A stretch of 64,000 bases of DNA, from NCBI GenBank assembly GCA_000004985.1, contig GG738849.1, one strand, 5' to 3'. Shown here in pieces: positions 3,001 through 64,000 of this stretch. The notes beneath the pieces are model-generated. The model was given only the letters and a program-made list of their open reading frames with translations, was not told the DNA's origin and made no database searches. This DNA comes from Naegleria gruberi. Taxonomy: Eukaryota. Each line of letters begins with the position of its first letter. The stretch's first letter is position 1. The position numbers and the translations under genes were made by a program.

Positions 3001-6000
3001 NNNNNNNNNNNNNNNNNNNNNNNNNNNNNNNNNNNNNNNNNNNNNNNNNNNNNNNNNNNNNNNNNNNNNNNNNNNNNNNNNNNNNNNNNNNNNNNNNNNN
3101 NNNNNNNNNNNNNNNNNNNNNNNNNNNNNNNNNNNNNNNNNNNNNNNNNNNNNNNNNNNNNNNNNNNNNNNNNNNNNNNNNNNNNNNNNNNNNNNNNNNN
3201 NNNNNNNNNNNNNNNNNNNNNNNNNNNNNNNNNNNNNNNNNNNNNNNNNNNNNNNNNNNNNNNNNNNNNNNNNNNNNNNNNNNNNNNNNNNNNNNNNNNN
3301 NNNNNNNNNNNNNNNNNNNNNNNNNNNNNNNNNNNNNNNNNNNNNNNNNNNNNNNNNNNNNNNNNNNNNNNNNNNNNNNNNNNNNNNNNNNNNNNNNNNN
3401 NNNNNNNNNNNNNNNNNNNNNNNNNNNNNNNNNNNNNNNNNNNNNNNNNNNNNNNNNNNNNNNNNNNNNNNNNNNNNNNNNNNNNNNNNNNNNNNNNNNN
3501 NNNNNNNNNNNNNNNNNNNNNNNNNNNNNNNNNNNNNNNNNNNNNNNNNNNNNNNNNNNNNNNNNNNNNNNNNNNNNNNNNNNNNNNNNNNNNNNNNNNN
3601 NNNNNNNNNNNNNNNNNNNNNNNNNNNNNNNNNNNNNNNNNNNNNNNNNNNNNNNNNNNNNNNNNNNNNNNNNNNNNNNNNNNNNNNNNNNNNNNNNNNN
3701 NNNNNNNNNNNNNNNNNNNNNNNNNNNNNNNNNNNNNNNNNNNNNNNNNNNNNNNNNNNNNNNNNNNNNNNNNNNNNNNNNNNNNNNNNNNNNNNNNNNN
3801 NNNNNNNNNNNNNNNNNNNNNNNNNNNNNNNNNNNNNNNNNNNNNNNNNNNNNNNNNNNNNNNNNNNNNNNNNNNNNNNNNNNNNNNNNNNNNNNNNNNN
3901 NNNNNNNNNNNNNNNNNNNNNNNNNNNNNNNNNNNNNNNNNNNNNNNNNNNNNNNNNNNNNNNNNNNNNNNNNNNNNNNNNNNNNNNNNNNNNNNNNNNN
4001 NNNNNNNNNNNNNNNNNNNNNNNNNNNNNNNNNNNNNNNNNNNNNNNNNNNNNNNNNNNNNNNNNNNNNNNNNNNNNNNNNNNNNNNNNNNNNNNNNNNN
4101 NNNNNNNNNNNNNNNNNNNNNNNNNNNNNNNNNNNNNNNNNNNNNNNNNNNNNNNNNNNNNNNNNNNNNNNNNNNNNNNNNNNNNNNNNNNNNNNNNNNN
4201 NNNNNNNNNNNNNNNNNNNNNNNNNNNNNNNNNNNNNNNNNNNNNNNNNNNNNNNNNNNNNNNNNNNNNNNNNNNNNNNNNNNNNNNNNNNNNNNNNNNN
4301 NNNNNNNNNNNNNNNNNNNNNNNNNNNNNNNNNNNNNNNNNNNNNNNNNNNNNNNNNNNNNNNNNNNNNNNNNNNNNNNNNNNNNNNNNNNNNNNNNNNN
4401 NNNNNNNNNNNNNNNNNNNNNNNNNNNNNNNNNNNNNNNNNNNNNNNNNNNNNNNNNNNNNNNNNNNNNNNNNNNNNNNNNNNNNNNNNNNNNNNNNNNN
4501 NNNNNNNNNNNNNNNNNNNNNNNNNNNNNNNNNNNNNNNNNNNNNNNNNNNNNNNNNNNNNNNNNNNNNNNNNNNNNNNNNNNNNNNNNNNNNNNNNNNN
4601 NNNNNNNNNNNNNNNNNNNNNNNNNNNNNNNNNNNNNNNNNNNNNNNNNNNNNNNNNNNNNNNNNNNNNNNNNNNNNNNNNNNNNNNNNNNNNNNNNNNN
4701 NNNNNNNNNNNNNNNNNNNNNNNNNNNNNNNNNNNNNNNNNNNNNNNNNNNNNNNNNNNNNNNNNNNNNNNNNNNNNNNNNNNNNNNNNNNNNNNNNNNN
4801 NNNNNNNNNNNNNNNNNNNNNNNNNNNNNNNNNNNNNNNNNNNNNNNNNNNNNNNNNNNNNNNNNNNNNNNNNNNNNNNNNNNNNNNNNNNNNNNNNNNN
4901 NNNNNNNNNNNNNNNNNNNNNNNNNNNNNNNNNNNNNNNNNNNNNNNNNNNNNNNNNNNNNNNNNNNNNNNNNNNNNNNNNNNNNNNNNNNNNNNNNNNN
5001 NNNNNNNNNNNNNNNNNNNNNNNNNNNNNNNNNNNNNNNNNNNNNNNNNNNNNNNNNNNNNNNNNNNNNNNNNNNNNNNNNNNNNNNNNNNNNNNNNNNN
5101 NNNNNNNNNNNNNNNNNNNNNNNNNNNNNNNNNNNNNNNNNNNNNNNNNNNNNNNNNNNNNNNNNNNNNNNNNNNNNNNNNNNNNNNNNNNNNNNNNNNN
5201 NNNNNNNNNNNNNNNNNNNNNNNNNNNNNNNNNNNNNNNNNNNNNNNNNNNNNNNNNNNNNNNNNNNNNNNNNNNNNNNNNNNNNNNNNNNNNNNNNNNN
5301 NNNNNNNNNNNNNNNNNNNNNNNNNNNNNNNNNNNNNNNNNNNNNNNNNNNNNNNNNNNNNNNNNNNNNNNNNNNNNNNNNNNNNNNNNNNNNNNNNNNN
5401 NNNNNNNNNNNNNNNNNNNNNNNNNNNNNNNNNNNNNNNNNNNNNNNNNNNNNNNNNNNNNNNNNNNNNNNNNNNNNNNNNNNNNNNNNNNNNNNNNNNN
5501 NNNNNNNNNNNNNNNNNNNNNNNNNNNNNNNNNNNNNNNNNNNNNNNNNNNNNNNNNNNNNNNNNNNNNNNNNNNNNNNNNNNNNNNNNNNNNNNNNNNN
5601 NNNNNNNNNNNNNNNNNNNNNNNNNNNNNNNNNNNNNNNNNNNNNNNNNNNNNNNNNNNNNNNNNNNNNNNNNNNNNNNNNNNNNNNNNNNNNNNNNNNN
5701 NNNNNNNNNNNNNNNNNNNNNNNNNNNNNNNNNNNNNNNNNNNNNNNNNNNNNNNNNNNNNNNNNNNNNNNNNNNNNNNNNNNNNNNNNNNNNNNNNNNN
5801 NNNNNNNNNNNNNNNNNNNNNNNNNNNNNNNNNNNNNNNNNNNNNNNNNNNNNNNNNNNNNNNNNNNNNNNNNNNNNNNNNNNNNNNNNNNNNNNNNNNN
5901 NNNNNNNNNNNNNNNNNNNNNNNNNNNNNNNNNNNNNNNNNNNNNNNNNNNNNNNNNNNNNNNNNNNNNNNNNNNNNNNNNNNNNNNNNNNNNNNNNNNN

Positions 6001-9000
6001 NNNNNNNNNNNNNNNNNNNNNNNNNNNNNNNNNNNNNNNNNNNNNNNNNNNNNNNNNNNNNNNNNNNNNNNNNNNNNNNNNNNNNNNNNNNNNNNNNNNN
6101 NNNNNNNNNNNNNNNNNNNNNNNNNNNNNNNNNNNNNNNNNNNNNNNNNNNNNNNNNNNNNNNNNNNNNNNNNNNNNNNNNNNNNNNNNNNNNNNNNNNN
6201 NNNNNNNNNNNNNNNNNNNNNNNNNNNNNNNNNNNNNNNNNNNNNNNNNNNNNNNNNNNNNNNNNNNNNNNNNNNNNNNNNNNNNNNNNNNNNNNNNNNN
6301 NNNNNNNNNNNNNNNNNNNNNNNNNNNNNNNNNNNNNNNNNNNNNNNNNNNNNNNNNNNNNNNNNNNNNNNNNNNNNNNNNNNNNNNNNNNNNNNNNNNN
6401 NNNNNNNNNNNNNNNNNNNNNNNNNNNNNNNNNNNNNNNNNNNNNNNNNNNNNNNNNNNNNNNNNNNNNNNNNNNNNNNNNNNNNNNNNNNNNNNNNNNN
6501 NNNNNNNNNNNNNNNNNNNNNNNNNNNNNNNNNNNNNNNNNNNNNNNNNNNNNNNNNNNNNNNNNNNNNNNNNNNNNNNNNNNNNNNNNNNNNNNNNNNN
6601 NNNNNNNNNNNNNNNNNNNNNNNNNNNNNNNNNNNNNNNNNNNNNNNNNNNNNNNNNNNNNNNNNNNNNNNNNNNNNNNNNNNNNNNNNNNNNNNNNNNN
6701 NNNNNNNNNNNNNNNNNNNNNNNNNNNNNNNNNNNNNNNNNNNNNNNNNNNNNNNNNNNNNNNNNNNNNNNNNNNNNNNNNNNNNNNNNNNNNNNNNNNN
6801 NNNNNNNNNNNNNNNNNNNNNNNNNNNNNNNNNNNNNNNNNNNNNNNNNNNNNNNNNNNNNNNNNNNNNNNNNNNNNNNNNNNNNNNNNNNNNNNNNNNN
6901 NNNNNNNNNNNNNNNNNNNNNNNNNNNNNNNNNNNNNNNNNNNNNNNNNNNNNNNNNNNNNNNNNNNNNNNNNNNNNNNNNNNNNNNNNNNNNNNNNNNN
7001 NNNNNNNNNNNNNNNNNNNNNNNNNNNNNNNNNNNNNNNNNNNNNNNNNNNNNNNNNNNNNNNNNNNNNNNNNNNNNNNNNNNNNNNNNNNNNNNNNNNN
7101 NNNNNNNNNNNNNNNNNNNNNNNNNNNNNNNNNNNNNNNNNNNNNNNNNNNNNNNNNNNNNNNNNNNNNNNNNNNNNNNNNNNNNNNNNNNNNNNNNNNN
7201 NNNNNNNNNNNNNNNNNNNNNNNNNNNNNNNNNNNNNNNNNNNNNNNNNNNNNNNNNNNNNNNNNNNNNNNNNNNNNNNNNNNNNNNNNNNNNNNNNNNN
7301 NNNNNNNNNNNNNNNNNNNNNNNNNNNNNNNNNNNNNNNNNNNNNNNNNNNNNNNNNNNNNNNNNNNNNNNNNNNNNNNNNNNNNNNNNNNNNNNNNNNN
7401 NNNNNNNNNNNNNNNNNNNNNNNNNNNNNNNNNNNNNNNNNNNNNNNNNNNNNNNNNNNNNNNNNNNNNNNNNNNNNNNNNNNNNNNNNNNNNNNNNNNN
7501 NNNNNNNNNNNNNNNNNNNNNNNNNNNNNNNNNNNNNNNNNNNNNNNNNNNNNNNNNNNNNNNNNNNNNNNNNNNNNNNNNNNNNNNNNNNNNNNNNNNN
7601 NNNNNNNNNNNNNNNNNNNNNNNNNNNNNNNNNNNNNNNNNNNNNNNNNNNNNNNNNNNNNNNNNNNNNNNNNNNNNNNNNNNNNNNNNNNNNNNNNNNN
7701 NNNNNNNNNNNNNNNNNNNNNNNNNNNNNNNNNNNNNNNNNNNNNNNNNNNNNNNNNNNNNNNNNNNNNNNNNNNNNNNNNNNNNNNNNNNNNNNNNNNN
7801 NNNNNNNNNNNNNNNNNNNNNNNNNNNNNNNNNNNNNNNNNNNNNNNNNNNNNNNNNNNNNNNNNNNNNNNNNNNNNNNNNNNNNNNNNNNNNNNNNNNN
7901 NNNNNNNNNNNNNNNNNNNNNNNNNNNNNNNNNNNNNNNNNNNNNNNNNNNNNNNNNNNNNNNNNNNNNNNNNNNNNNNNNNNNNNNNNNNNNNNNNNNN
8001 NNNNNNNNNNNNNNNNNNNNNNNNNNNNNNNNNNNNNNNNNNNNNNNNNNNNNNNNNNNNNNNNNNNNNNNNNNNNNNNNNNNNNNNNNNNNNNNNNNNN
8101 NNNNNNNNNNNNNNNNNNNNNNNNNNNNNNNNNNNNNNNNNNNNNNNNNNNNNNNNNNNNNNNNNNNNNNNNNNNNNNNNNNNNNNNNNNNNNNNNNNNN
8201 NNNNNNNNNNNNNNNNNNNNNNNNNNNNNNNNNNNNNNNNNNNNNNNNNNNNNNNNNNNNNNNNNNNNNNNNNNNNNNNNNNNNNNNNNNNNNNNNNNNN
8301 NNNNNNNNNNNNNNNNNNNNNNNNNNNNNNNNNNNNNNNNNNNNNNNNNNNNNNNNNNNNNNNNNNNNNNNNNNNNNNNNNNNNNNNNNNNNNNNNNNNN
8401 NNNNNNNNNNNNNNNNNNNNNNNNNNNNNNNNNNNNNNNNNNNNNNNNNNNNNNNNNNNNNNNNNNNNNNNNNNNNNNNNNNNNNNNNNNNNNNNNNNNN
8501 NNNNNNNNNNNNNNNNNNNNNNNNNNNNNNNNNNNNNNNNNNNNNNNNNNNNNNNNNNNNNNNNNNNNNNNNNNNNNNNNNNNNNNNNNNNNNNNNNNNN
8601 NNNNNNNNNNNNNNNNNNNNNNNNNNNNNNNNNNNNNNNNNNNNNNNNNNNNNNNNNNNNNNNNNNNNNNNNNNNNNNNNNNNNNNNNNNNNNNNNNNNN
8701 NNNNNNNNNNNNNNNNNNNNNNNNNNNNNNNNNNNNNNNNNNNNNNNNNNNNNNNNNNNNNNNNNNNNNNNNNNNNNNNNNNNNNNNNNNNNNNNNNNNN
8801 NNNNNNNNNNNNNNNNNNNNNNNNNNNNNNNNNNNNNNNNNNNNNNNNNNNNNNNNNNNNNNNNNNNNNNNNNNNNNNNNNNNNNNNNNNNNNNNNNNNN
8901 NNNNNNNNNNNNNNNNNNNNNNNNNNNNNNNNNNNNNNNNNNNNNNNNNNNNNNNNNNNNNNNNNNNNNNNNNNNNNNNNNNNNNNNNNNNNNNNNNNNN

Positions 9001-57951: not shown

Positions 57952-58844
57952 ACATTTAGAGATTGGATTGAATTGAAAAATCCAAGACTCACTGGAATAA
58001 CCATTGCAGGTAATAATTCCACTAAATTAAATAATAACCAAAAAGCCACAACTCTCTTCCTTTCATTTCTTTGTTTGAATATAATCATCTGAGGATGATC
58101 TTGAATATTTTCATAAGAATCCACTTCTCTGGTTCCTTTCAAAAATTGATATGATTTCCAAGATTTGTAAAAGCAAAAACCAGTCAAAATTAACAGTGTC
58201 AGAGTAACAAATGTTGCAAATAGGAATGGTACTAAAAGTGTTCCCACAAAATCCGAGTCATCATCCCACAAATAAGAAATCTTTAAATTTCCAATCACTG
58301 ACAGGTATTTGAAATATTTTACATTTGATAGATGCCATGGCAGATGAAAATCCGTGAACAATGTAATCCACTGAGCCAGTAATATAAAATGGCACACCAA
58401 TGACACCATTCCCTTATTTGAATGTTTGAAAATCTTGCCAAATAATCGTTCTTTCAAAGAAGACGCGTTTCGTTTCGAGTGTGTTGATGGAGTTGGCATC
58501 TTTTCCAAATCATCATCATTTCCAAAATACAAATACAATTCATAAAAGAAGTAATACAATCCCTTTTCTCTATCCTTCAAAGATAATTGTGGATATAATT
58601 TCTCATAACAAACATCATGATCAGACAATACACTTGCCGATGATACAATATTAGGAATTATTCTCGTGGTTGTTGTTGTTGTTGTAGATATTTGTTGTTG
58701 TTGCTGCTGATGATTATCTCCTCCTCCATTGGATACGATCAAACGAGTAGCCATCTGTTGTTGCTGTTGTGTGTTACTATTGCTATTCATCATCTGGGTC
58801 GCAGATAAATATTGTTGCTCCTCCTGTGGATGATTCGTAGACAT
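57952..58844 (-). CDS. 5'-complete, 3'-truncated CDS (297 codons + 2 nt, no stop before the gap) for a hypothetical multi-pass membrane protein with a Q/T/N/S-rich N-terminal low-complexity region
   Basis: Manual reverse-complement translation from ATG (plus 58844..58842) gives an uninterrupted frame to the N boundary: MSTNHPQEEQQYLSATQMMNSNSNTQQQQQMATRLIVSNGGGDNHQQQQQQISTTTTTTTRIIPNIVSSASVLSDHDVCYEKLYPQLSLKDREKGLYYFFYELYLYFGNDDDLEKMPTPSTHSKRNASSLKERLFGKIFKHSNKGMVSLVCHFILLAQWITLFTDFHLPWHLSNVKYFKYLSVIGNLKISYLWDDDSDFVGTLLVPFLFATFVTLTLLILTGFCFYKSWKSYQFLKGTREVDSYENIQDHPQMIIFKQRNERKRVVAFWLLFNLVELLPAMVIPVSLGFFNSIQSLN. An in-frame TAA lies ~30 nt upstream of the ATG, so this is the first in-frame ATG. 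The start context is gAAAAA-ATG-TCT. Codon usage is coherent (AGA Arg, TTG/TTA Leu, CAA Gln, AAT Asn, GAT Asp). Three ~20-27-residue hydrophobic segments are separated by charged loops. No other frame on either strand carries a long ORF. Confidence 0.7.
57978..58052 (-). other. Predicted transmembrane helix 3 (residues ~265-289, VVAFWLLFNLVELLPAMVIPVSLGF)
   Basis: A 25-residue apolar stretch following the basic loop QRNERKR. The gene continues into the gap, so more helices may follow. Confidence 0.5.
58170..58250 (-). other. Predicted transmembrane helix 2 (residues ~199-225, FVGTLLVPFLFATFVTLTLLILTGFCF)
   Basis: A 27-residue apolar stretch preceded by the acidic cluster DDDSD and followed by a K/R-rich loop. 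Confidence 0.55.
58347..58412 (-). other. Predicted transmembrane helix 1 (residues ~145-166, GMVSLVCHFILLAQWITLFTDF)
   Basis: A 22-residue mostly apolar stretch flanked by K-rich sequence on the N-terminal side (KERLFGKIFKHSNKG). Hydrophobicity judged by eye; no program was run. Confidence 0.5.
58669..58686. repeat. Trinucleotide microsatellite (GTT)5-GTA on plus = (ACA)5-ACC-ACG on the coding strand, encoding Thr7
   Basis: Plus-strand sequence ggttgttgttgttgttgtag read directly. In the CDS frame it translates to TTTTTTT. Confidence 0.9.
58692..58709. repeat. Imperfect trinucleotide repeat (TTG)4(CTG)2 on plus = (CAG)2(CAA)4 on the coding strand, encoding Gln6
   Basis: Plus-strand sequence ttgttgttgttgctgctg read directly. 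In frame it gives QQQQQQ (residues 46-51). Confidence 0.9.
58756..58770. repeat. Imperfect CAA/CAG repeat on the coding strand, encoding Gln5
   Basis: Plus-strand sequence ctgttgttgctgttg. In frame it gives QQQQQ (residues 26-30), preceded by NSNSNT. Confidence 0.85.
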
Positions 58845-58850
58845 TTTTTC
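58839..58850 (-). promoter_or_regulatory. Translation initiation context gAAAAA-ATG-TCT
   Basis: The plus strand reads acattttttc at 58841..58850. The coding strand therefore has five consecutive A immediately 5' of ATG, with TCT (Ser) as the second codon. This matches the A-rich -1..-5 context with preferred +4..+6 UCU described for Saccharomyces cerevisiae. The inference rests on that consensus, not on any tool. Confidence 0.5.
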
Positions 58851-59262
58851 TTGGAGAGTTTTTGGAAAGGCGCCACATTACAATTCAATAAACAAATAAA
58901 TTGGTTGTGAATATTGGAATATTGATAAATGTAGGCAAGAAAGACTGTAATGAAGGGAACATTTGAGGTAATAATCAGCAATAGAGTCATGACGATGAGA
59001 GAGTGAATTTATTGTTGATCGACTTGGTCATAGAGAAGAGAGTGAATGAGGGAAGGAATGGAAGTTTTTGATTCTTGAGCTTGGAGGGAAAGGAGATTGG
59101 CCAGCTCTGGATCTTTTTGGAGGTGAGTGAACATGCTGGTGGCTCTAATGTTTTCCAATTGAATGTTGTAATAGATGTGGATGTATTCAGTGTTGAAAGA
59201 GGAGAGGATGAGGACCAGTTCATTATTGTGTCGGGGAGTGAGCGAAAATTTTCCACAATAAC
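58845..59262 (-). promoter_or_regulatory. 5' flank / putative promoter and 5' leader of the minus-strand gene, truncated upstream by the second gap
   Basis: No ORF longer than ~30 codons on the plus strand. The coding-strand ORFs here are low-complexity artefacts. Strand asymmetry is marked: the plus strand is G/A-rich and the gene's strand is CT-rich, for example cctcatcctctcctctttc. The region contains CGATGAG (58993..58999), GATGAG (59207..59212), GAAAATTTTC (59247..59256) and 2 x GAGAGTGAAT (58999..59008, 59038..59047). No canonical TATAAA on the gene's strand. Confidence 0.4.
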
Positions 59263-62200
59263 NNNNNNNNNNNNNNNNNNNNNNNNNNNNNNNNNNNNNN
59301 NNNNNNNNNNNNNNNNNNNNNNNNNNNNNNNNNNNNNNNNNNNNNNNNNNNNNNNNNNNNNNNNNNNNNNNNNNNNNNNNNNNNNNNNNNNNNNNNNNNN
59401 NNNNNNNNNNNNNNNNNNNNNNNNNNNNNNNNNNNNNNNNNNNNNNNNNNNNNNNNNNNNNNNNNNNNNNNNNNNNNNNNNNNNNNNNNNNNNNNNNNNN
59501 NNNNNNNNNNNNNNNNNNNNNNNNNNNNNNNNNNNNNNNNNNNNNNNNNNNNNNNNNNNNNNNNNNNNNNNNNNNNNNNNNNNNNNNNNNNNNNNNNNNN
59601 NNNNNNNNNNNNNNNNNNNNNNNNNNNNNNNNNNNNNNNNNNNNNNNNNNNNNNNNNNNNNNNNNNNNNNNNNNNNNNNNNNNNNNNNNNNNNNNNNNNN
59701 NNNNNNNNNNNNNNNNNNNNNNNNNNNNNNNNNNNNNNNNNNNNNNNNNNNNNNNNNNNNNNNNNNNNNNNNNNNNNNNNNNNNNNNNNNNNNNNNNNNN
59801 NNNNNNNNNNNNNNNNNNNNNNNNNNNNNNNNNNNNNNNNNNNNNNNNNNNNNNNNNNNNNNNNNNNNNNNNNNNNNNNNNNNNNNNNNNNNNNNNNNNN
59901 NNNNNNNNNNNNNNNNNNNNNNNNNNNNNNNNNNNNNNNNNNNNNNNNNNNNNNNNNNNNNNNNNNNNNNNNNNNNNNNNNNNNNNNNNNNNNNNNNNNN
60001 NNNNNNNNNNNNNNNNNNNNNNNNNNNNNNNNNNNNNNNNNNNNNNNNNNNNNNNNNNNNNNNNNNNNNNNNNNNNNNNNNNNNNNNNNNNNNNNNNNNN
60101 NNNNNNNNNNNNNNNNNNNNNNNNNNNNNNNNNNNNNNNNNNNNNNNNNNNNNNNNNNNNNNNNNNNNNNNNNNNNNNNNNNNNNNNNNNNNNNNNNNNN
60201 NNNNNNNNNNNNNNNNNNNNNNNNNNNNNNNNNNNNNNNNNNNNNNNNNNNNNNNNNNNNNNNNNNNNNNNNNNNNNNNNNNNNNNNNNNNNNNNNNNNN
60301 NNNNNNNNNNNNNNNNNNNNNNNNNNNNNNNNNNNNNNNNNNNNNNNNNNNNNNNNNNNNNNNNNNNNNNNNNNNNNNNNNNNNNNNNNNNNNNNNNNNN
60401 NNNNNNNNNNNNNNNNNNNNNNNNNNNNNNNNNNNNNNNNNNNNNNNNNNNNNNNNNNNNNNNNNNNNNNNNNNNNNNNNNNNNNNNNNNNNNNNNNNNN
60501 NNNNNNNNNNNNNNNNNNNNNNNNNNNNNNNNNNNNNNNNNNNNNNNNNNNNNNNNNNNNNNNNNNNNNNNNNNNNNNNNNNNNNNNNNNNNNNNNNNNN
60601 NNNNNNNNNNNNNNNNNNNNNNNNNNNNNNNNNNNNNNNNNNNNNNNNNNNNNNNNNNNNNNNNNNNNNNNNNNNNNNNNNNNNNNNNNNNNNNNNNNNN
60701 NNNNNNNNNNNNNNNNNNNNNNNNNNNNNNNNNNNNNNNNNNNNNNNNNNNNNNNNNNNNNNNNNNNNNNNNNNNNNNNNNNNNNNNNNNNNNNNNNNNN
60801 NNNNNNNNNNNNNNNNNNNNNNNNNNNNNNNNNNNNNNNNNNNNNNNNNNNNNNNNNNNNNNNNNNNNNNNNNNNNNNNNNNNNNNNNNNNNNNNNNNNN
60901 NNNNNNNNNNNNNNNNNNNNNNNNNNNNNNNNNNNNNNNNNNNNNNNNNNNNNNNNNNNNNNNNNNNNNNNNNNNNNNNNNNNNNNNNNNNNNNNNNNNN
61001 NNNNNNNNNNNNNNNNNNNNNNNNNNNNNNNNNNNNNNNNNNNNNNNNNNNNNNNNNNNNNNNNNNNNNNNNNNNNNNNNNNNNNNNNNNNNNNNNNNNN
61101 NNNNNNNNNNNNNNNNNNNNNNNNNNNNNNNNNNNNNNNNNNNNNNNNNNNNNNNNNNNNNNNNNNNNNNNNNNNNNNNNNNNNNNNNNNNNNNNNNNNN
61201 NNNNNNNNNNNNNNNNNNNNNNNNNNNNNNNNNNNNNNNNNNNNNNNNNNNNNNNNNNNNNNNNNNNNNNNNNNNNNNNNNNNNNNNNNNNNNNNNNNNN
61301 NNNNNNNNNNNNNNNNNNNNNNNNNNNNNNNNNNNNNNNNNNNNNNNNNNNNNNNNNNNNNNNNNNNNNNNNNNNNNNNNNNNNNNNNNNNNNNNNNNNN
61401 NNNNNNNNNNNNNNNNNNNNNNNNNNNNNNNNNNNNNNNNNNNNNNNNNNNNNNNNNNNNNNNNNNNNNNNNNNNNNNNNNNNNNNNNNNNNNNNNNNNN
61501 NNNNNNNNNNNNNNNNNNNNNNNNNNNNNNNNNNNNNNNNNNNNNNNNNNNNNNNNNNNNNNNNNNNNNNNNNNNNNNNNNNNNNNNNNNNNNNNNNNNN
61601 NNNNNNNNNNNNNNNNNNNNNNNNNNNNNNNNNNNNNNNNNNNNNNNNNNNNNNNNNNNNNNNNNNNNNNNNNNNNNNNNNNNNNNNNNNNNNNNNNNNN
61701 NNNNNNNNNNNNNNNNNNNNNNNNNNNNNNNNNNNNNNNNNNNNNNNNNNNNNNNNNNNNNNNNNNNNNNNNNNNNNNNNNNNNNNNNNNNNNNNNNNNN
61801 NNNNNNNNNNNNNNNNNNNNNNNNNNNNNNNNNNNNNNNNNNNNNNNNNNNNNNNNNNNNNNNNNNNNNNNNNNNNNNNNNNNNNNNNNNNNNNNNNNNN
61901 NNNNNNNNNNNNNNNNNNNNNNNNNNNNNNNNNNNNNNNNNNNNNNNNNNNNNNNNNNNNNNNNNNNNNNNNNNNNNNNNNNNNNNNNNNNNNNNNNNNN
62001 NNNNNNNNNNNNNNNNNNNNNNNNNNNNNNNNNNNNNNNNNNNNNNNNNNNNNNNNNNNNNNNNNNNNNNNNNNNNNNNNNNNNNNNNNNNNNNNNNNNN
62101 NNNNNNNNNNNNNNNNNNNNNNNNNNNNNNNNNNNNNNNNNNNNNNNNNNNNNNNNNNNNNNNNNNNNNNNNNNNNNNNNNNNNNNNNNNNNNNNNNNNN

Positions 62201-64000
62201 NNNNNNNNNNNNNNNNNNNNNNNNNNNNNNNNNNNNNNNNNNNNNNNNNNNNNNNNNNNNNNNNNNNNNNNNNNNNNNNNNNNNNNNNNNNNNNNNNNNN
62301 NNNNNNNNNNNNNNNNNNNNNNNNNNNNNNNNNNNNNNNNNNNNNNNNNNNNNNNNNNNNNNNNNNNNNNNNNNNNNNNNNNNNNNNNNNNNNNNNNNNN
62401 NNNNNNNNNNNNNNNNNNNNNNNNNNNNNNNNNNNNNNNNNNNNNNNNNNNNNNNNNNNNNNNNNNNNNNNNNNNNNNNNNNNNNNNNNNNNNNNNNNNN
62501 NNNNNNNNNNNNNNNNNNNNNNNNNNNNNNNNNNNNNNNNNNNNNNNNNNNNNNNNNNNNNNNNNNNNNNNNNNNNNNNNNNNNNNNNNNNNNNNNNNNN
62601 NNNNNNNNNNNNNNNNNNNNNNNNNNNNNNNNNNNNNNNNNNNNNNNNNNNNNNNNNNNNNNNNNNNNNNNNNNNNNNNNNNNNNNNNNNNNNNNNNNNN
62701 NNNNNNNNNNNNNNNNNNNNNNNNNNNNNNNNNNNNNNNNNNNNNNNNNNNNNNNNNNNNNNNNNNNNNNNNNNNNNNNNNNNNNNNNNNNNNNNNNNNN
62801 NNNNNNNNNNNNNNNNNNNNNNNNNNNNNNNNNNNNNNNNNNNNNNNNNNNNNNNNNNNNNNNNNNNNNNNNNNNNNNNNNNNNNNNNNNNNNNNNNNNN
62901 NNNNNNNNNNNNNNNNNNNNNNNNNNNNNNNNNNNNNNNNNNNNNNNNNNNNNNNNNNNNNNNNNNNNNNNNNNNNNNNNNNNNNNNNNNNNNNNNNNNN
63001 NNNNNNNNNNNNNNNNNNNNNNNNNNNNNNNNNNNNNNNNNNNNNNNNNNNNNNNNNNNNNNNNNNNNNNNNNNNNNNNNNNNNNNNNNNNNNNNNNNNN
63101 NNNNNNNNNNNNNNNNNNNNNNNNNNNNNNNNNNNNNNNNNNNNNNNNNNNNNNNNNNNNNNNNNNNNNNNNNNNNNNNNNNNNNNNNNNNNNNNNNNNN
63201 NNNNNNNNNNNNNNNNNNNNNNNNNNNNNNNNNNNNNNNNNNNNNNNNNNNNNNNNNNNNNNNNNNNNNNNNNNNNNNNNNNNNNNNNNNNNNNNNNNNN
63301 NNNNNNNNNNNNNNNNNNNNNNNNNNNNNNNNNNNNNNNNNNNNNNNNNNNNNNNNNNNNNNNNNNNNNNNNNNNNNNNNNNNNNNNNNNNNNNNNNNNN
63401 NNNNNNNNNNNNNNNNNNNNNNNNNNNNNNNNNNNNNNNNNNNNNNNNNNNNNNNNNNNNNNNNNNNNNNNNNNNNNNNNNNNNNNNNNNNNNNNNNNNN
63501 NNNNNNNNNNNNNNNNNNNNNNNNNNNNNNNNNNNNNNNNNNNNNNNNNNNNNNNNNNNNNNNNNNNNNNNNNNNNNNNNNNNNNNNNNNNNNNNNNNNN
63601 NNNNNNNNNNNNNNNNNNNNNNNNNNNNNNNNNNNNNNNNNNNNNNNNNNNNNNNNNNNNNNNNNNNNNNNNNNNNNNNNNNNNNNNNNNNNNNNNNNNN
63701 NNNNNNNNNNNNNNNNNNNNNNNNNNNNNNNNNNNNNNNNNNNNNNNNNNNNNNNNNNNNNNNNNNNNNNNNNNNNNNNNNNNNNNNNNNNNNNNNNNNN
63801 NNNNNNNNNNNNNNNNNNNNNNNNNNNNNNNNNNNNNNNNNNNNNNNNNNNNNNNNNNNNNNNNNNNNNNNNNNNNNNNNNNNNNNNNNNNNNNNNNNNN
63901 NNNNNNNNNNNNNNNNNNNNNNNNNNNNNNNNNNNNNNNNNNNNNNNNNNNNNNNNNNNNNNNNNNNNNNNNNNNNNNNNNNNNNNNNNNNNNNNNNNNN
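59263..64000. other. Assembly gap / masked run: 4,738 consecutive N
   Basis: Direct reading. The last determined bases are 'ac' at 59261..59262, and everything after is 'n'. Confidence 1.

What the first reader, a model, noticed from the sequence alone, without database searches (positions are those of the whole stretch)
57952..58844. Partial gene for an unrecognised multi-pass membrane protein (Q-rich N-terminus + >=3 TM helices)
A clean 297-codon minus-strand ORF with a good start context and an upstream in-frame stop. It encodes a ~140-residue hydrophilic N-terminal region followed by three hydrophobic helices, with strongly basic or acidic connecting loops (KSWKSYQFLKGTREV...KQRNERKR; YLWDDDSDF). 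I cannot assign it to any family I know from these motifs, so it is a candidate uncharacterised or lineage-specific membrane protein. The C-terminal part is lost in the gap.
Basis: partly seen in the sequence, partly recalled or inferred. Interest (0 to 1): 0.5.

Follow-up and report, generated by a model that had tools for sequence, protein, structure and literature searches.

The report
Naegleria orphan eight-helix membrane protein gene
This is the first half of a real gene already catalogued as a "predicted protein" of the amoeba Naegleria gruberi (not a yeast); it encodes a conserved membrane protein of unknown function found only in Naegleria and its close relative Willaertia.

Summary
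Window 57952-58844 (-) is an open 297-codon reading frame with an ATG, an in-frame TAA 12 codons upstream, a Q/T/N-rich N-terminus and three hydrophobic helices, and it runs into an N gap. Only 1311 bases of the window (57952-59262) are real sequence.

It is not a yeast gene. An exhaustive HMMER search found three relatives among 1.84 billion proteins. The best, at 99% identity, is Naegleria gruberi XP_002681754.1 (NAEGRDRAFT_62913, "predicted protein", 587 aa). Orthologues exist in N. fowleri, N. lovaniensis, Willaertia magna and one metagenome contig, all unnamed.

Full-length members have about 8 transmembrane helices, both ends probably cytosolic, and a conserved helical C-terminal domain of about 170 aa that lies in the gap. 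The gene is under purifying selection (dN/dS 0.19). In three Naegleria species it sits directly downstream of an ITFG2-like gene.

No Pfam, NCBIfam, PHROG or PDB match was found. Two AlphaFold runs failed (pLDDT 41 and 45), so the fold and function are unresolved. Conservation peaks on the cytosolic loops and the juxtamembrane C-domain. This suggests a cytosol-facing working site, but that is inference only.

Verdict: a real, already deposited, uncharacterised gene restricted to this lineage. Interest is modest.

The parts
57952..58844 (-). Partial CDS, codons 1-297 of about 587, of the N. gruberi gene NAEGRDRAFT_62913 (orphan 8-TM protein). It is truncated by the N gap.
   Evidence: It is colinear with P0001 and 295/297 identical (V127A, R172L), with no intron in this part.
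58842..58844 (-). Start codon ATG, with A at -3 and an A-rich leader. In the alignment the orthologues' N-termini line up with M18/M19, so a downstream start cannot be excluded.
58878..58880 (-). In-frame TAA, 12 codons upstream of the ATG.
58629..58844 (-). aa 1-72: Q/T/N/S-rich low-complexity N-terminal tail, not conserved among orthologues (mean identity 0.14). It contains an imperfect 3-nt repeat at 58669-58703.
58521..58628 (-). aa 73-108: conserved cytosolic segment DVxYExLYPQL...EKxxYxFFYELYLYF (an aromatic helix).
   Evidence: 7 invariant positions. A helix is predicted in both AF2 runs.
58356..58412 (-). TM1 (aa 145-163), with invariant Q158.
58242..58355 (-). aa 164-201: loop TM1-TM2, inferred to be extracytosolic. 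It carries the invariant LPW motif and the acidic DDDSDF.
58185..58241 (-). TM2 (aa 202-220), with the invariant PFLF motif.
58053..58184 (-). aa 221-264: basic loop TM2-TM3 (9 K/R against 5 D/E), inferred to be cytosolic.
57996..58052 (-). TM3 (aa 265-283), with invariant F268, L271, F272, P279 and I283.
57954..57995 (-). aa 284-297: end of TM3 (invariant P284, F289) and the TM3-TM4 turn (invariant I293, S295, N297). These are the last residues before the gap.
58845..59008 (.). 164-nt intergenic spacer and 5' leader between the upstream gene's stop codon and the ATG.
59009..59260 (-). Last 83 codons plus the stop codon (59009-59011) of the upstream neighbour, an ITFG2-like gene. The same gene order is seen in N. 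fowleri and N. lovaniensis.
   Evidence: 62% identity to L004:5672-5908, inside a gene carrying PF15907 Itfg2.

Best explanation
SHOWN: window 57952-58844 (-) is the 5' half of a real, single-exon (in this part) protein-coding gene of Naegleria gruberi or a very close strain or haplotype. The gene is NAEGRDRAFT_62913 (XP_002681754.1), deposited as a 'predicted protein'. It belongs to a small orphan family found so far in only five sequence clusters: N. gruberi, N. fowleri, N. lovaniensis, Willaertia magna (all Naegleriidae) and one environmental contig. The family is under purifying selection. In Naegleria the gene keeps its position directly downstream of an ITFG2-like gene.

INFERRED, fairly safely: the full protein has about 8 TM helices, with a cytosolic disordered N-tail, a cytosolic aromatic helix and a conserved all-helical cytosolic C-domain of about 170 aa. 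The window carries only the tail, the aromatic helix and TM1-TM3.

INFERRED, weakly (about 0.3): the working part faces the cytosol. The best-conserved elements are the TM4-TM5 loop (YEWRFDxGNxxAKSxxRLD), the TM6-TM7 loop (KTAMNI) and the juxtamembrane C-domain (RNxxIxPxxxFEVEMxxRTI). There are also invariant polar residues in or near the membrane: Q158, H355, D371 and E433. This pattern fits a membrane-embedded enzyme or a partner-binding transducer with a site at the cytosol-membrane interface better than a simple pore. The variable Q/T-rich tail would be a dispensable or regulatory appendage.
For: Identity: exhaustive phmmer of aa 62-297 against 1.84e9 representatives gave 3 hits. These were P0001 (E 5.4e-154, 99%), P0002 (49%) and P0003 (32%). 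A profile search added N. fowleri P0005 and N. lovaniensis P0006.

Real gene: the ORF is far beyond chance. dN/dS between N. fowleri and N. lovaniensis is 0.151/0.805 = 0.19, and between N. gruberi and N. fowleri dN is 0.45 with dS saturated. 36 positions are invariant within the window part.

Synteny: the upstream ITFG2-like tail is conserved.

Architecture: there are 8 hydropathy peaks at equivalent positions in all full-length members, and the TM2-TM3 loop is basic. The C-domain motifs are conserved, including in contig L002 after a short intron. Both AF2 runs predict all-helical secondary structure.

Conservation by segment: cytosolic loop 2 has 11/21 invariant positions, the KTAMN loop 5/12 and C-domain part 1 16/50. 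TM segments have 8-25% invariant positions and the N-tail 1/72.
Against: There is no experimental or homology-based evidence for any function. Both AlphaFold2 models are unreliable (pLDDT 41.1 and 44.9, pTM 0.31), and the fold searches on them are noise.

The TM count and topology rest on a simple hydropathy scale and the positive-inside rule, not on a dedicated predictor. With only five sequences, 'invariant' positions are weak evidence. High loop conservation is also seen in some transporters and receptors.

The informative half of the protein (TM4-TM8 and the C-domain) is not in the window, so everything said about it comes from orthologues. Microsynteny in eukaryotes does not imply a functional link.
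Confidence: 0.8

Rival explanations
1. It is a very divergent member of an already described membrane-protein family, for example a transporter or channel, a 7TM-type receptor with an extra helix, or a multi-TM plus helical-repeat signalling protein such as the Dictyostelium TmcB-type proteins. The relationship would lie beyond the reach of single-sequence or shallow-profile HMMER.
For: The architecture of many TM helices followed by a conserved helical cytosolic domain is common in known families. Naegleria proteins are often highly diverged. The methods used here are HMMER-level only, and no profile-profile search against Pfam or PDB70 was available. The TmcB resemblance comes from memory only.
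Against: Pfam-A hmmscan of all five full-length or near-full-length members at E<=10 gave only sub-threshold noise. NCBIfam gave none. PDB profile searches with the whole family, the C-domain and the TM5-C-domain segment gave nothing better than E 0.2. The exhaustive phmmer search found no protein outside the family.
Confidence: 0.3
2. It is an ion channel or secondary transporter: the 8-TM bundle forms a permeation pathway using the invariant intramembrane D371 and the polar residues Q158 and E433, with the C-domain as a cytosolic gate or regulator.
For: There is an invariant Asp in mid-TM6. Several prolines in TM2-TM4 are invariant and could form kinks (P206, P279, P284, P310). There is a large cytosolic regulatory-looking domain.
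Against: No internal 4+4 repeat is detectable by hhalign (best probability 1.5%). Loops are more conserved than helices. No similarity to any transporter or channel family was found.
Confidence: 0.2
3. The ORF is a chance open frame, a pseudogene fragment or an assembly artefact stranded between N runs.
For: It is an isolated 1.3-kb island in a 64-kb window of N. It differs from the reference protein at two residues, one of which (R172L) hits a position that is R in N. fowleri and N. lovaniensis.
Against: P(open by chance) is about 1.5e-9. The ORF is 99% identical to a deposited gene model. The gene is under purifying selection, and the neighbouring gene's tail is conserved in the right place.
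Confidence: 0.02
4. It is a yeast (fungal) membrane-protein gene.
For: The 35% GC content and the Q/N-rich tail are superficially Candida-like.
Against: All relatives are Naegleriidae or environmental, and none is fungal. Codon use is not Candida-like by my recollection: GGA 10/12 for Gly and CCA 7/10 for Pro.
Confidence: 0.01

Closest known systems
Naegleria gruberi XP_002681754.1 / EFC49010.1 / UniProt D2V284 (NAEGRDRAFT_62913, 'predicted protein', 587 aa)
   Same: Same gene: 295/297 residues identical and colinear over the whole visible ORF.
   Different: There are two substitutions, V127A and R172L, so the window comes from another strain, haplotype or assembly, or contains read errors. 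The window lacks residues 298-587.
Orthologues: N. fowleri FDP41_005841 (642 aa), N. lovaniensis C9374_011360 (632 aa), Willaertia magna ABK040_009766 (KAL9642687.1, 574 aa), and JGI metagenome 3300002220 contig MLSBCLC_10262723
   Same: Same 8-TM layout and the same motifs: FFYELYLY, LPW, PFLF, LPxxxIP, YEWRF..AKS..RLD, KTAMNI and FEVEMxxRTI. Identity is 52%, 52%, 35% and 47%. The ITFG2-like upstream neighbour is the same in the two Naegleria species.
   Different: The N-terminal tails are unrelated low-complexity sequence, and the pre-TM1 linker varies in length. Willaertia and the metagenome relative have an intron at NF(V/I)|ESK, and Willaertia is not syntenic. All are annotated only as hypothetical.
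Multi-TM proteins with a cytosolic helical-repeat C-domain, e.g. Dictyostelium TmcB-type proteins (recalled from memory, a lead only)
   Same: The general layout: a disordered N-tail, a block of TM helices, then an all-helical cytosolic domain with motifs reminiscent of TPR helices, such as 'SPFVxLSYAQF'.
   Different: No sequence match to any TPR, TmcB or other Pfam model at E<=10. The C-domain is much shorter. Membership is not supported.

Membership tests
Naegleriidae orphan 8-TM family (NAEGRDRAFT_62913 / FDP41_005841 / C9374_011360 / ABK040_009766) | Significant full-length-colinear sequence similarity to the family members | tested here: met
   E 5.4e-154 (99%) to P0001, 6.5e-56 to P0002 and 1.6e-06 to P0003. 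Profile search.
Naegleriidae orphan 8-TM family (NAEGRDRAFT_62913 / FDP41_005841 / C9374_011360 / ABK040_009766) | N-terminal-half motifs: FFYELYLY helix, LPW loop, PFLF in TM2, LPxxxIP in TM3, SxN turn | tested here: met
   All are present in the window translation at invariant alignment columns.
Naegleriidae orphan 8-TM family (NAEGRDRAFT_62913 / FDP41_005841 / C9374_011360 / ABK040_009766) | C-terminal-half motifs (YEWRF..AKS..RLD, KTAMNI, FEVEMxxRTI, WKWxDVRxMFY) and TM4-TM8 | not testable with these tools
   This part of the gene lies in the N gap. It is present in the 99%-identical reference P0001 except for the last motif.
Naegleriidae orphan 8-TM family (NAEGRDRAFT_62913 / FDP41_005841 / C9374_011360 / ABK040_009766) | Position immediately downstream of the ITFG2-like gene (Naegleria species) | tested here: met
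   Window 59009-59260 (-) is 62% and 58% identical to the corresponding tails in L004 and L001.
Any curated Pfam-A / NCBIfam / PHROG family | Score above the family's gathering threshold | tested here: not met
   Best scores are 11.9-14.8 bits against cut-offs of 25-32.
Fungal (yeast) membrane protein | Closest relatives in fungi | tested here: not met
   Only Naegleriidae and one environmental sequence were found among 1.84e9 representatives.
7TM receptors (GPCR-like) | Seven TM helices with an extracellular N-terminus, and a match to a 7tm family model | tested here: not met
   Eight hydropathy peaks. The long hydrophilic N-tail has no signal peptide-like segment. No 7tm Pfam hit.
TmcB-type TM + TPR proteins (lead from memory) | Detectable TPR/TmcB-type C-terminal repeats | tested here: not met
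   No TPR or TmcB model was hit in P0003, P0005 or P0006 at E<=10. HMMER-level sensitivity only.
Inverted/duplicated-repeat transporters (4+4 TM) | Detectable similarity between the two halves | tested here: not met
   hhalign of halves and quarters gave probability <=1.5%.

The most novel reading that the evidence does not exclude
The family is the founding set of a new membrane-protein fold or function confined to Naegleriidae. It would be a lineage-invented 8-TM enzyme or transducer with a cytosol-facing site built from the YEWRF loop, the KTAMN loop and the FEVEM juxtamembrane domain. It is conserved in the pathogen N. fowleri. No relative was found outside Naegleriidae, human included, in the searches run here.
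Probability: 0.3. Interest if true: 0.4.

Novelty: already known. Interest (0 to 1): 0.2.

Why it matters
As it stands, this is one of the many lineage-restricted hypothetical proteins of a protist genome, and the sequence has been in public databases as NAEGRDRAFT_62913. It has some value for three reasons. First, the family has no Pfam or other curated model and could be defined from the five members assembled here. Second, it is conserved under purifying selection in the brain-eating amoeba N. fowleri, and no relative was detected outside Naegleriidae. That makes it a generic candidate marker or target, but nothing singles it out among other such genes. Third, the comparison exposes probable annotation errors in neighbouring or related gene models. 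Nothing here bears on a long-standing open question.

Tried and rejected
1. Word-indexed homologue search with the 297-aa ORF and with the C-domain alignment. Both returned nothing, not even the near-identical or identical database entries, so they are false negatives of the index and not evidence of absence. The full-length alignment search and the exhaustive search did work.

2. Family libraries: Pfam, PHROG and NCBIfam gave only sub-threshold noise, such as DUF6429, DUF4728, COX14, S-antigen and YijD.

3. PDB sequence and profile searches found nothing better than E 0.2.

5. An internal-repeat test by hhalign was negative.

6. Scans for further relatives found none. These covered viral contigs, metagenome contigs twice and prokaryotic genomes.

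7. Rfam, tRNA and tandem-repeat scans of the 1311 bases found nothing except the coding 3-nt repeat.

8. Literature searches for the locus tags and the JGI id gave 0 papers, and a broader search gave nothing relevant.

9. I first read the conserved block upstream of the ATG as a possible ncRNA or regulatory element. I rejected this because it has a clean conserved reading frame ending in a stop and lies inside the annotated N. lovaniensis ITFG2-like gene.

10. Tyrosine motifs in the conserved N-segment (YEKL, LYPQL) could be YxxPhi or YPxL sorting signals. They are not conserved in Willaertia, and the Pro is absent in N. fowleri and N. lovaniensis, so I did not pursue them.

Full report
**What is in the window.**
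The 64-kb window is almost entirely N. Only 57952-59262 (1311 bases, 35% GC) is sequence. Window:57952-58844 (-) translates to 297 residues without a stop, with two spare bases at the gap edge. The ATG at 58842-58844 sits in an A-rich context, and an in-frame TAA lies 12 codons upstream at 58878-58880. With the local base composition, the chance of 297 open codons is about 1.5e-9. The longest open run is 308 codons, against a maximum of 172 in 2000 shuffles.

Hydropathy gives three clear peaks, at aa 145-163, 202-220 and 265-283, after a hydrophilic N-terminus of about 144 residues. The acidic loop (YLWDDDSDF) and the basic loop (KSWKSY...KQRNERKR) are present.

**Identity.**
Pfam, PHROG, PDB sequence and word-indexed homologue searches with the fragment returned nothing. 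An exhaustive phmmer search of aa 62-297 against 1.84 billion cluster representatives found only three proteins:
- P0001 (587 aa, 99% identity, E 5.4e-154)
- P0002 (456 aa, 49%)
- P0003 (574 aa, 32%)

The cluster look-up names P0001 as Naegleria gruberi EFC49010.1 / XP_002681754.1 / UniProt D2V284, 'predicted protein', NAEGRDRAFT_62913. P0003 is Willaertia magna KAL9642687.1, a hypothetical protein. P0002 is an unnamed JGI metagenome protein. A profile search with the full-length alignment added N. fowleri FDP41_005841 (P0005, 642 aa) and N. lovaniensis C9374_011360 (P0006, 632 aa), and nothing else.

The window differs from P0001 at two of 297 residues, V127A and R172L. So it is the same gene from another strain, haplotype or assembly. 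Naegleria and Willaertia are both Naegleriidae (Heterolobosea, Discoba). By my recollection the codon use (GGA 10/12 Gly, CCA 7/10 Pro) is not Candida-like either. The failure, and later, to return even the near-identical database entry shows that those two word-index searches were false negatives.

**Is it a real gene?**
- The N. fowleri and N. lovaniensis genes are single uninterrupted ORFs.
- Nei-Gojobori estimates give dN 0.151 and dS 0.805 (ratio 0.19) between those two species. Between the window ORF and N. fowleri, dN is 0.45 with dS saturated.
- 36 positions in the window part are invariant across all five family members.
- The flank supports orthology. Window 59009-59260 (-) is the last 83 codons plus the stop of the upstream neighbour (...FSLTPRHNNELVLILSSFN...SLIHSLLYDQVDQQ*). 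It is 62% identical to the tail of the N. lovaniensis 581-aa gene that carries PF15907 Itfg2, and 58% identical to the equivalent N. fowleri region.
- The order ITFG2-like gene then membrane-protein gene, on the same strand and 164 nt apart in the window, is therefore shared by three Naegleria species. Willaertia does not share it.

**Anatomy of the full protein (from orthologues; the 3' half of this copy is in the gap).**
All full-length members show eight hydropathy peaks at equivalent alignment positions. In P0001 numbering these are TM1 145-163, TM2 202-220, TM3 265-283, TM4 296-314, TM5 340-358, TM6 362-380, TM7 399-417 and TM8 433-451.

Several features point to N-in/C-in topology. This is an inference from the positive-inside rule:
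- the long hydrophilic N-tail with no signal-like segment
- the basic TM2-TM3 loop (9 K/R against 5 D/E)
- the even helix number

The N-tail (aa 1-72) is unconserved low-complexity sequence (mean identity 0.14). It is followed by a conserved aromatic helix, EKxxYxFFYELYLYF.

Beyond the window lie the most conserved elements:
- the TM4-TM5 loop YEWRFDxGNxxAKSxxRLD (11 of 21 positions invariant)
- the TM6-TM7 loop KTAMNI (5 of 12 invariant)
- the juxtamembrane part of a C-domain of about 170 residues, RNxxIxPxxxFEVEMxxRTI (16 of 50 invariant)

TM segments have 8-25% invariant positions. Invariant polar residues in or next to the membrane include Q158, H355, D371 and E433. Both AF2 runs predict the C-domain as all-helical. 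It is also encoded in the metagenome contig after a 37-nt intron that the prokaryotic gene caller missed.

**Attempts to assign a fold or family.**
Pfam-A on all members at E<=10 gave only noise below threshold, and NCBIfam gave none. PDB profile searches with the whole family, the C-domain and the TM5-to-C-domain segment gave nothing better than E 0.2.

No internal duplication is detectable. Scans of viral, metagenomic and prokaryotic contig collections with family alignments found no further relative. No paper mentions the locus tags.

**How it most likely works.**
What is shown is a conserved, selected, polytopic membrane protein restricted to Naegleriidae. What follows is inference.

Conservation is concentrated in the two cytosolic loops and the juxtamembrane C-domain, which are rich in invariant charged residues: E324, R326, K335, R339, D341, K390, E487, E489 and R493. 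These are backed by H355 and D371 in the adjacent helices. I therefore favour, at about 0.3, a working site at the cytosol-membrane interface. That would make it a membrane-embedded enzyme or a transducer that binds a cytosolic partner, with the Q/T-rich tail as a variable appendage.

A channel or transporter reading is about 0.2. A very divergent member of a known family is about 0.3, and this overlaps with the other readings. Neither is excluded. A resemblance to multi-TM plus helical-repeat proteins such as Dictyostelium TmcB is only a recollection and failed the one test available (no Pfam hit).

**Comparison, novelty and verdict.**
The closest known entity is the deposited N. gruberi gene itself. 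The family is unnamed, has no curated model and has no characterised member.

I rate novelty as 'already known' because the sequence and its orthologues are public database entries. That means catalogued, not understood.

Interest is low to modest (0.2). Orphan membrane proteins are common in protist genomes, and nothing here is surprising to a specialist. The most novel reading not excluded is a new fold or function invented in Naegleriidae and conserved in N. fowleri. I give it probability about 0.3 and interest 0.4 if true.

Noticed in passing
window 1-57951 and 59263-64000: 98% of the window is N; only a 1311-base island is readable. Either the source scaffold has very large gaps or the rest was masked. 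Nothing outside 57952-59262 can be evaluated.
   Followed up: yes
window 59009-59260 (-): This is the C-terminal 83 codons plus the stop of the upstream neighbour, an ITFG2-like gene (PF15907 in the N. lovaniensis orthologue). The mechanical ORF list shows a different, non-conserved frame here (58987-59256, 89 aa), which is spurious.
   Followed up: yes
L001 (N. fowleri VFQX01000048.1) about 5690-5937: The annotated N. fowleri ITFG2-like gene (506 aa) ends at L001:5720. The conserved coding sequence continues in another frame to about 5937, and the N. lovaniensis orthologue is 581 aa. The switch occurs at a T-run (GGCCTTTTTTTCTC). This suggests a homopolymer indel in the assembly or a truncated model.
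   Followed up: partly
P0001 (N. gruberi reference protein) C-terminus, beyond the window: P0001 ends ...RYSDNISDTCSTLEQGIGLSVNY. It lacks the WKWxDVRxMFYxxTRxWFE motif present in N. fowleri, N. lovaniensis, Willaertia and contig L002. The 3' end of the N. gruberi model is probably mis-predicted. This cannot be tested because that part is in the gap.
   Followed up: partly
L002:1778-1816 and L003 about 7440-7530: A short intron at the same codon position, NF(V/I)|ESK, is present in the metagenome relative and in Willaertia but absent from N. fowleri and N. lovaniensis. The prokaryote-style gene call on L002 therefore truncated P0002 at 456 aa.
   Followed up: partly
window 58331 and 58465 region (codons 172 and 127): There are two amino-acid differences from the reference, R172L and V127A. 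R172 is conserved in N. fowleri and N. lovaniensis (LPWHRSN), so L172 may be an allelic variant or a base-call error.
   Followed up: partly
window 58788-58793 (codons 18-19, MM): In the alignment, the N. fowleri and N. lovaniensis proteins begin where N. gruberi has M18/M19 (MNSNSN against MDSNST). The true start might be downstream of the annotated ATG. The 17 extra residues are unconserved.
   Followed up: no
tool behaviour: The word-indexed protein search returned no hits for queries whose identical or 99%-identical sequences are in the collection. Negative results from that tool for low-complexity or short-domain queries should not be trusted.
   Followed up: yes
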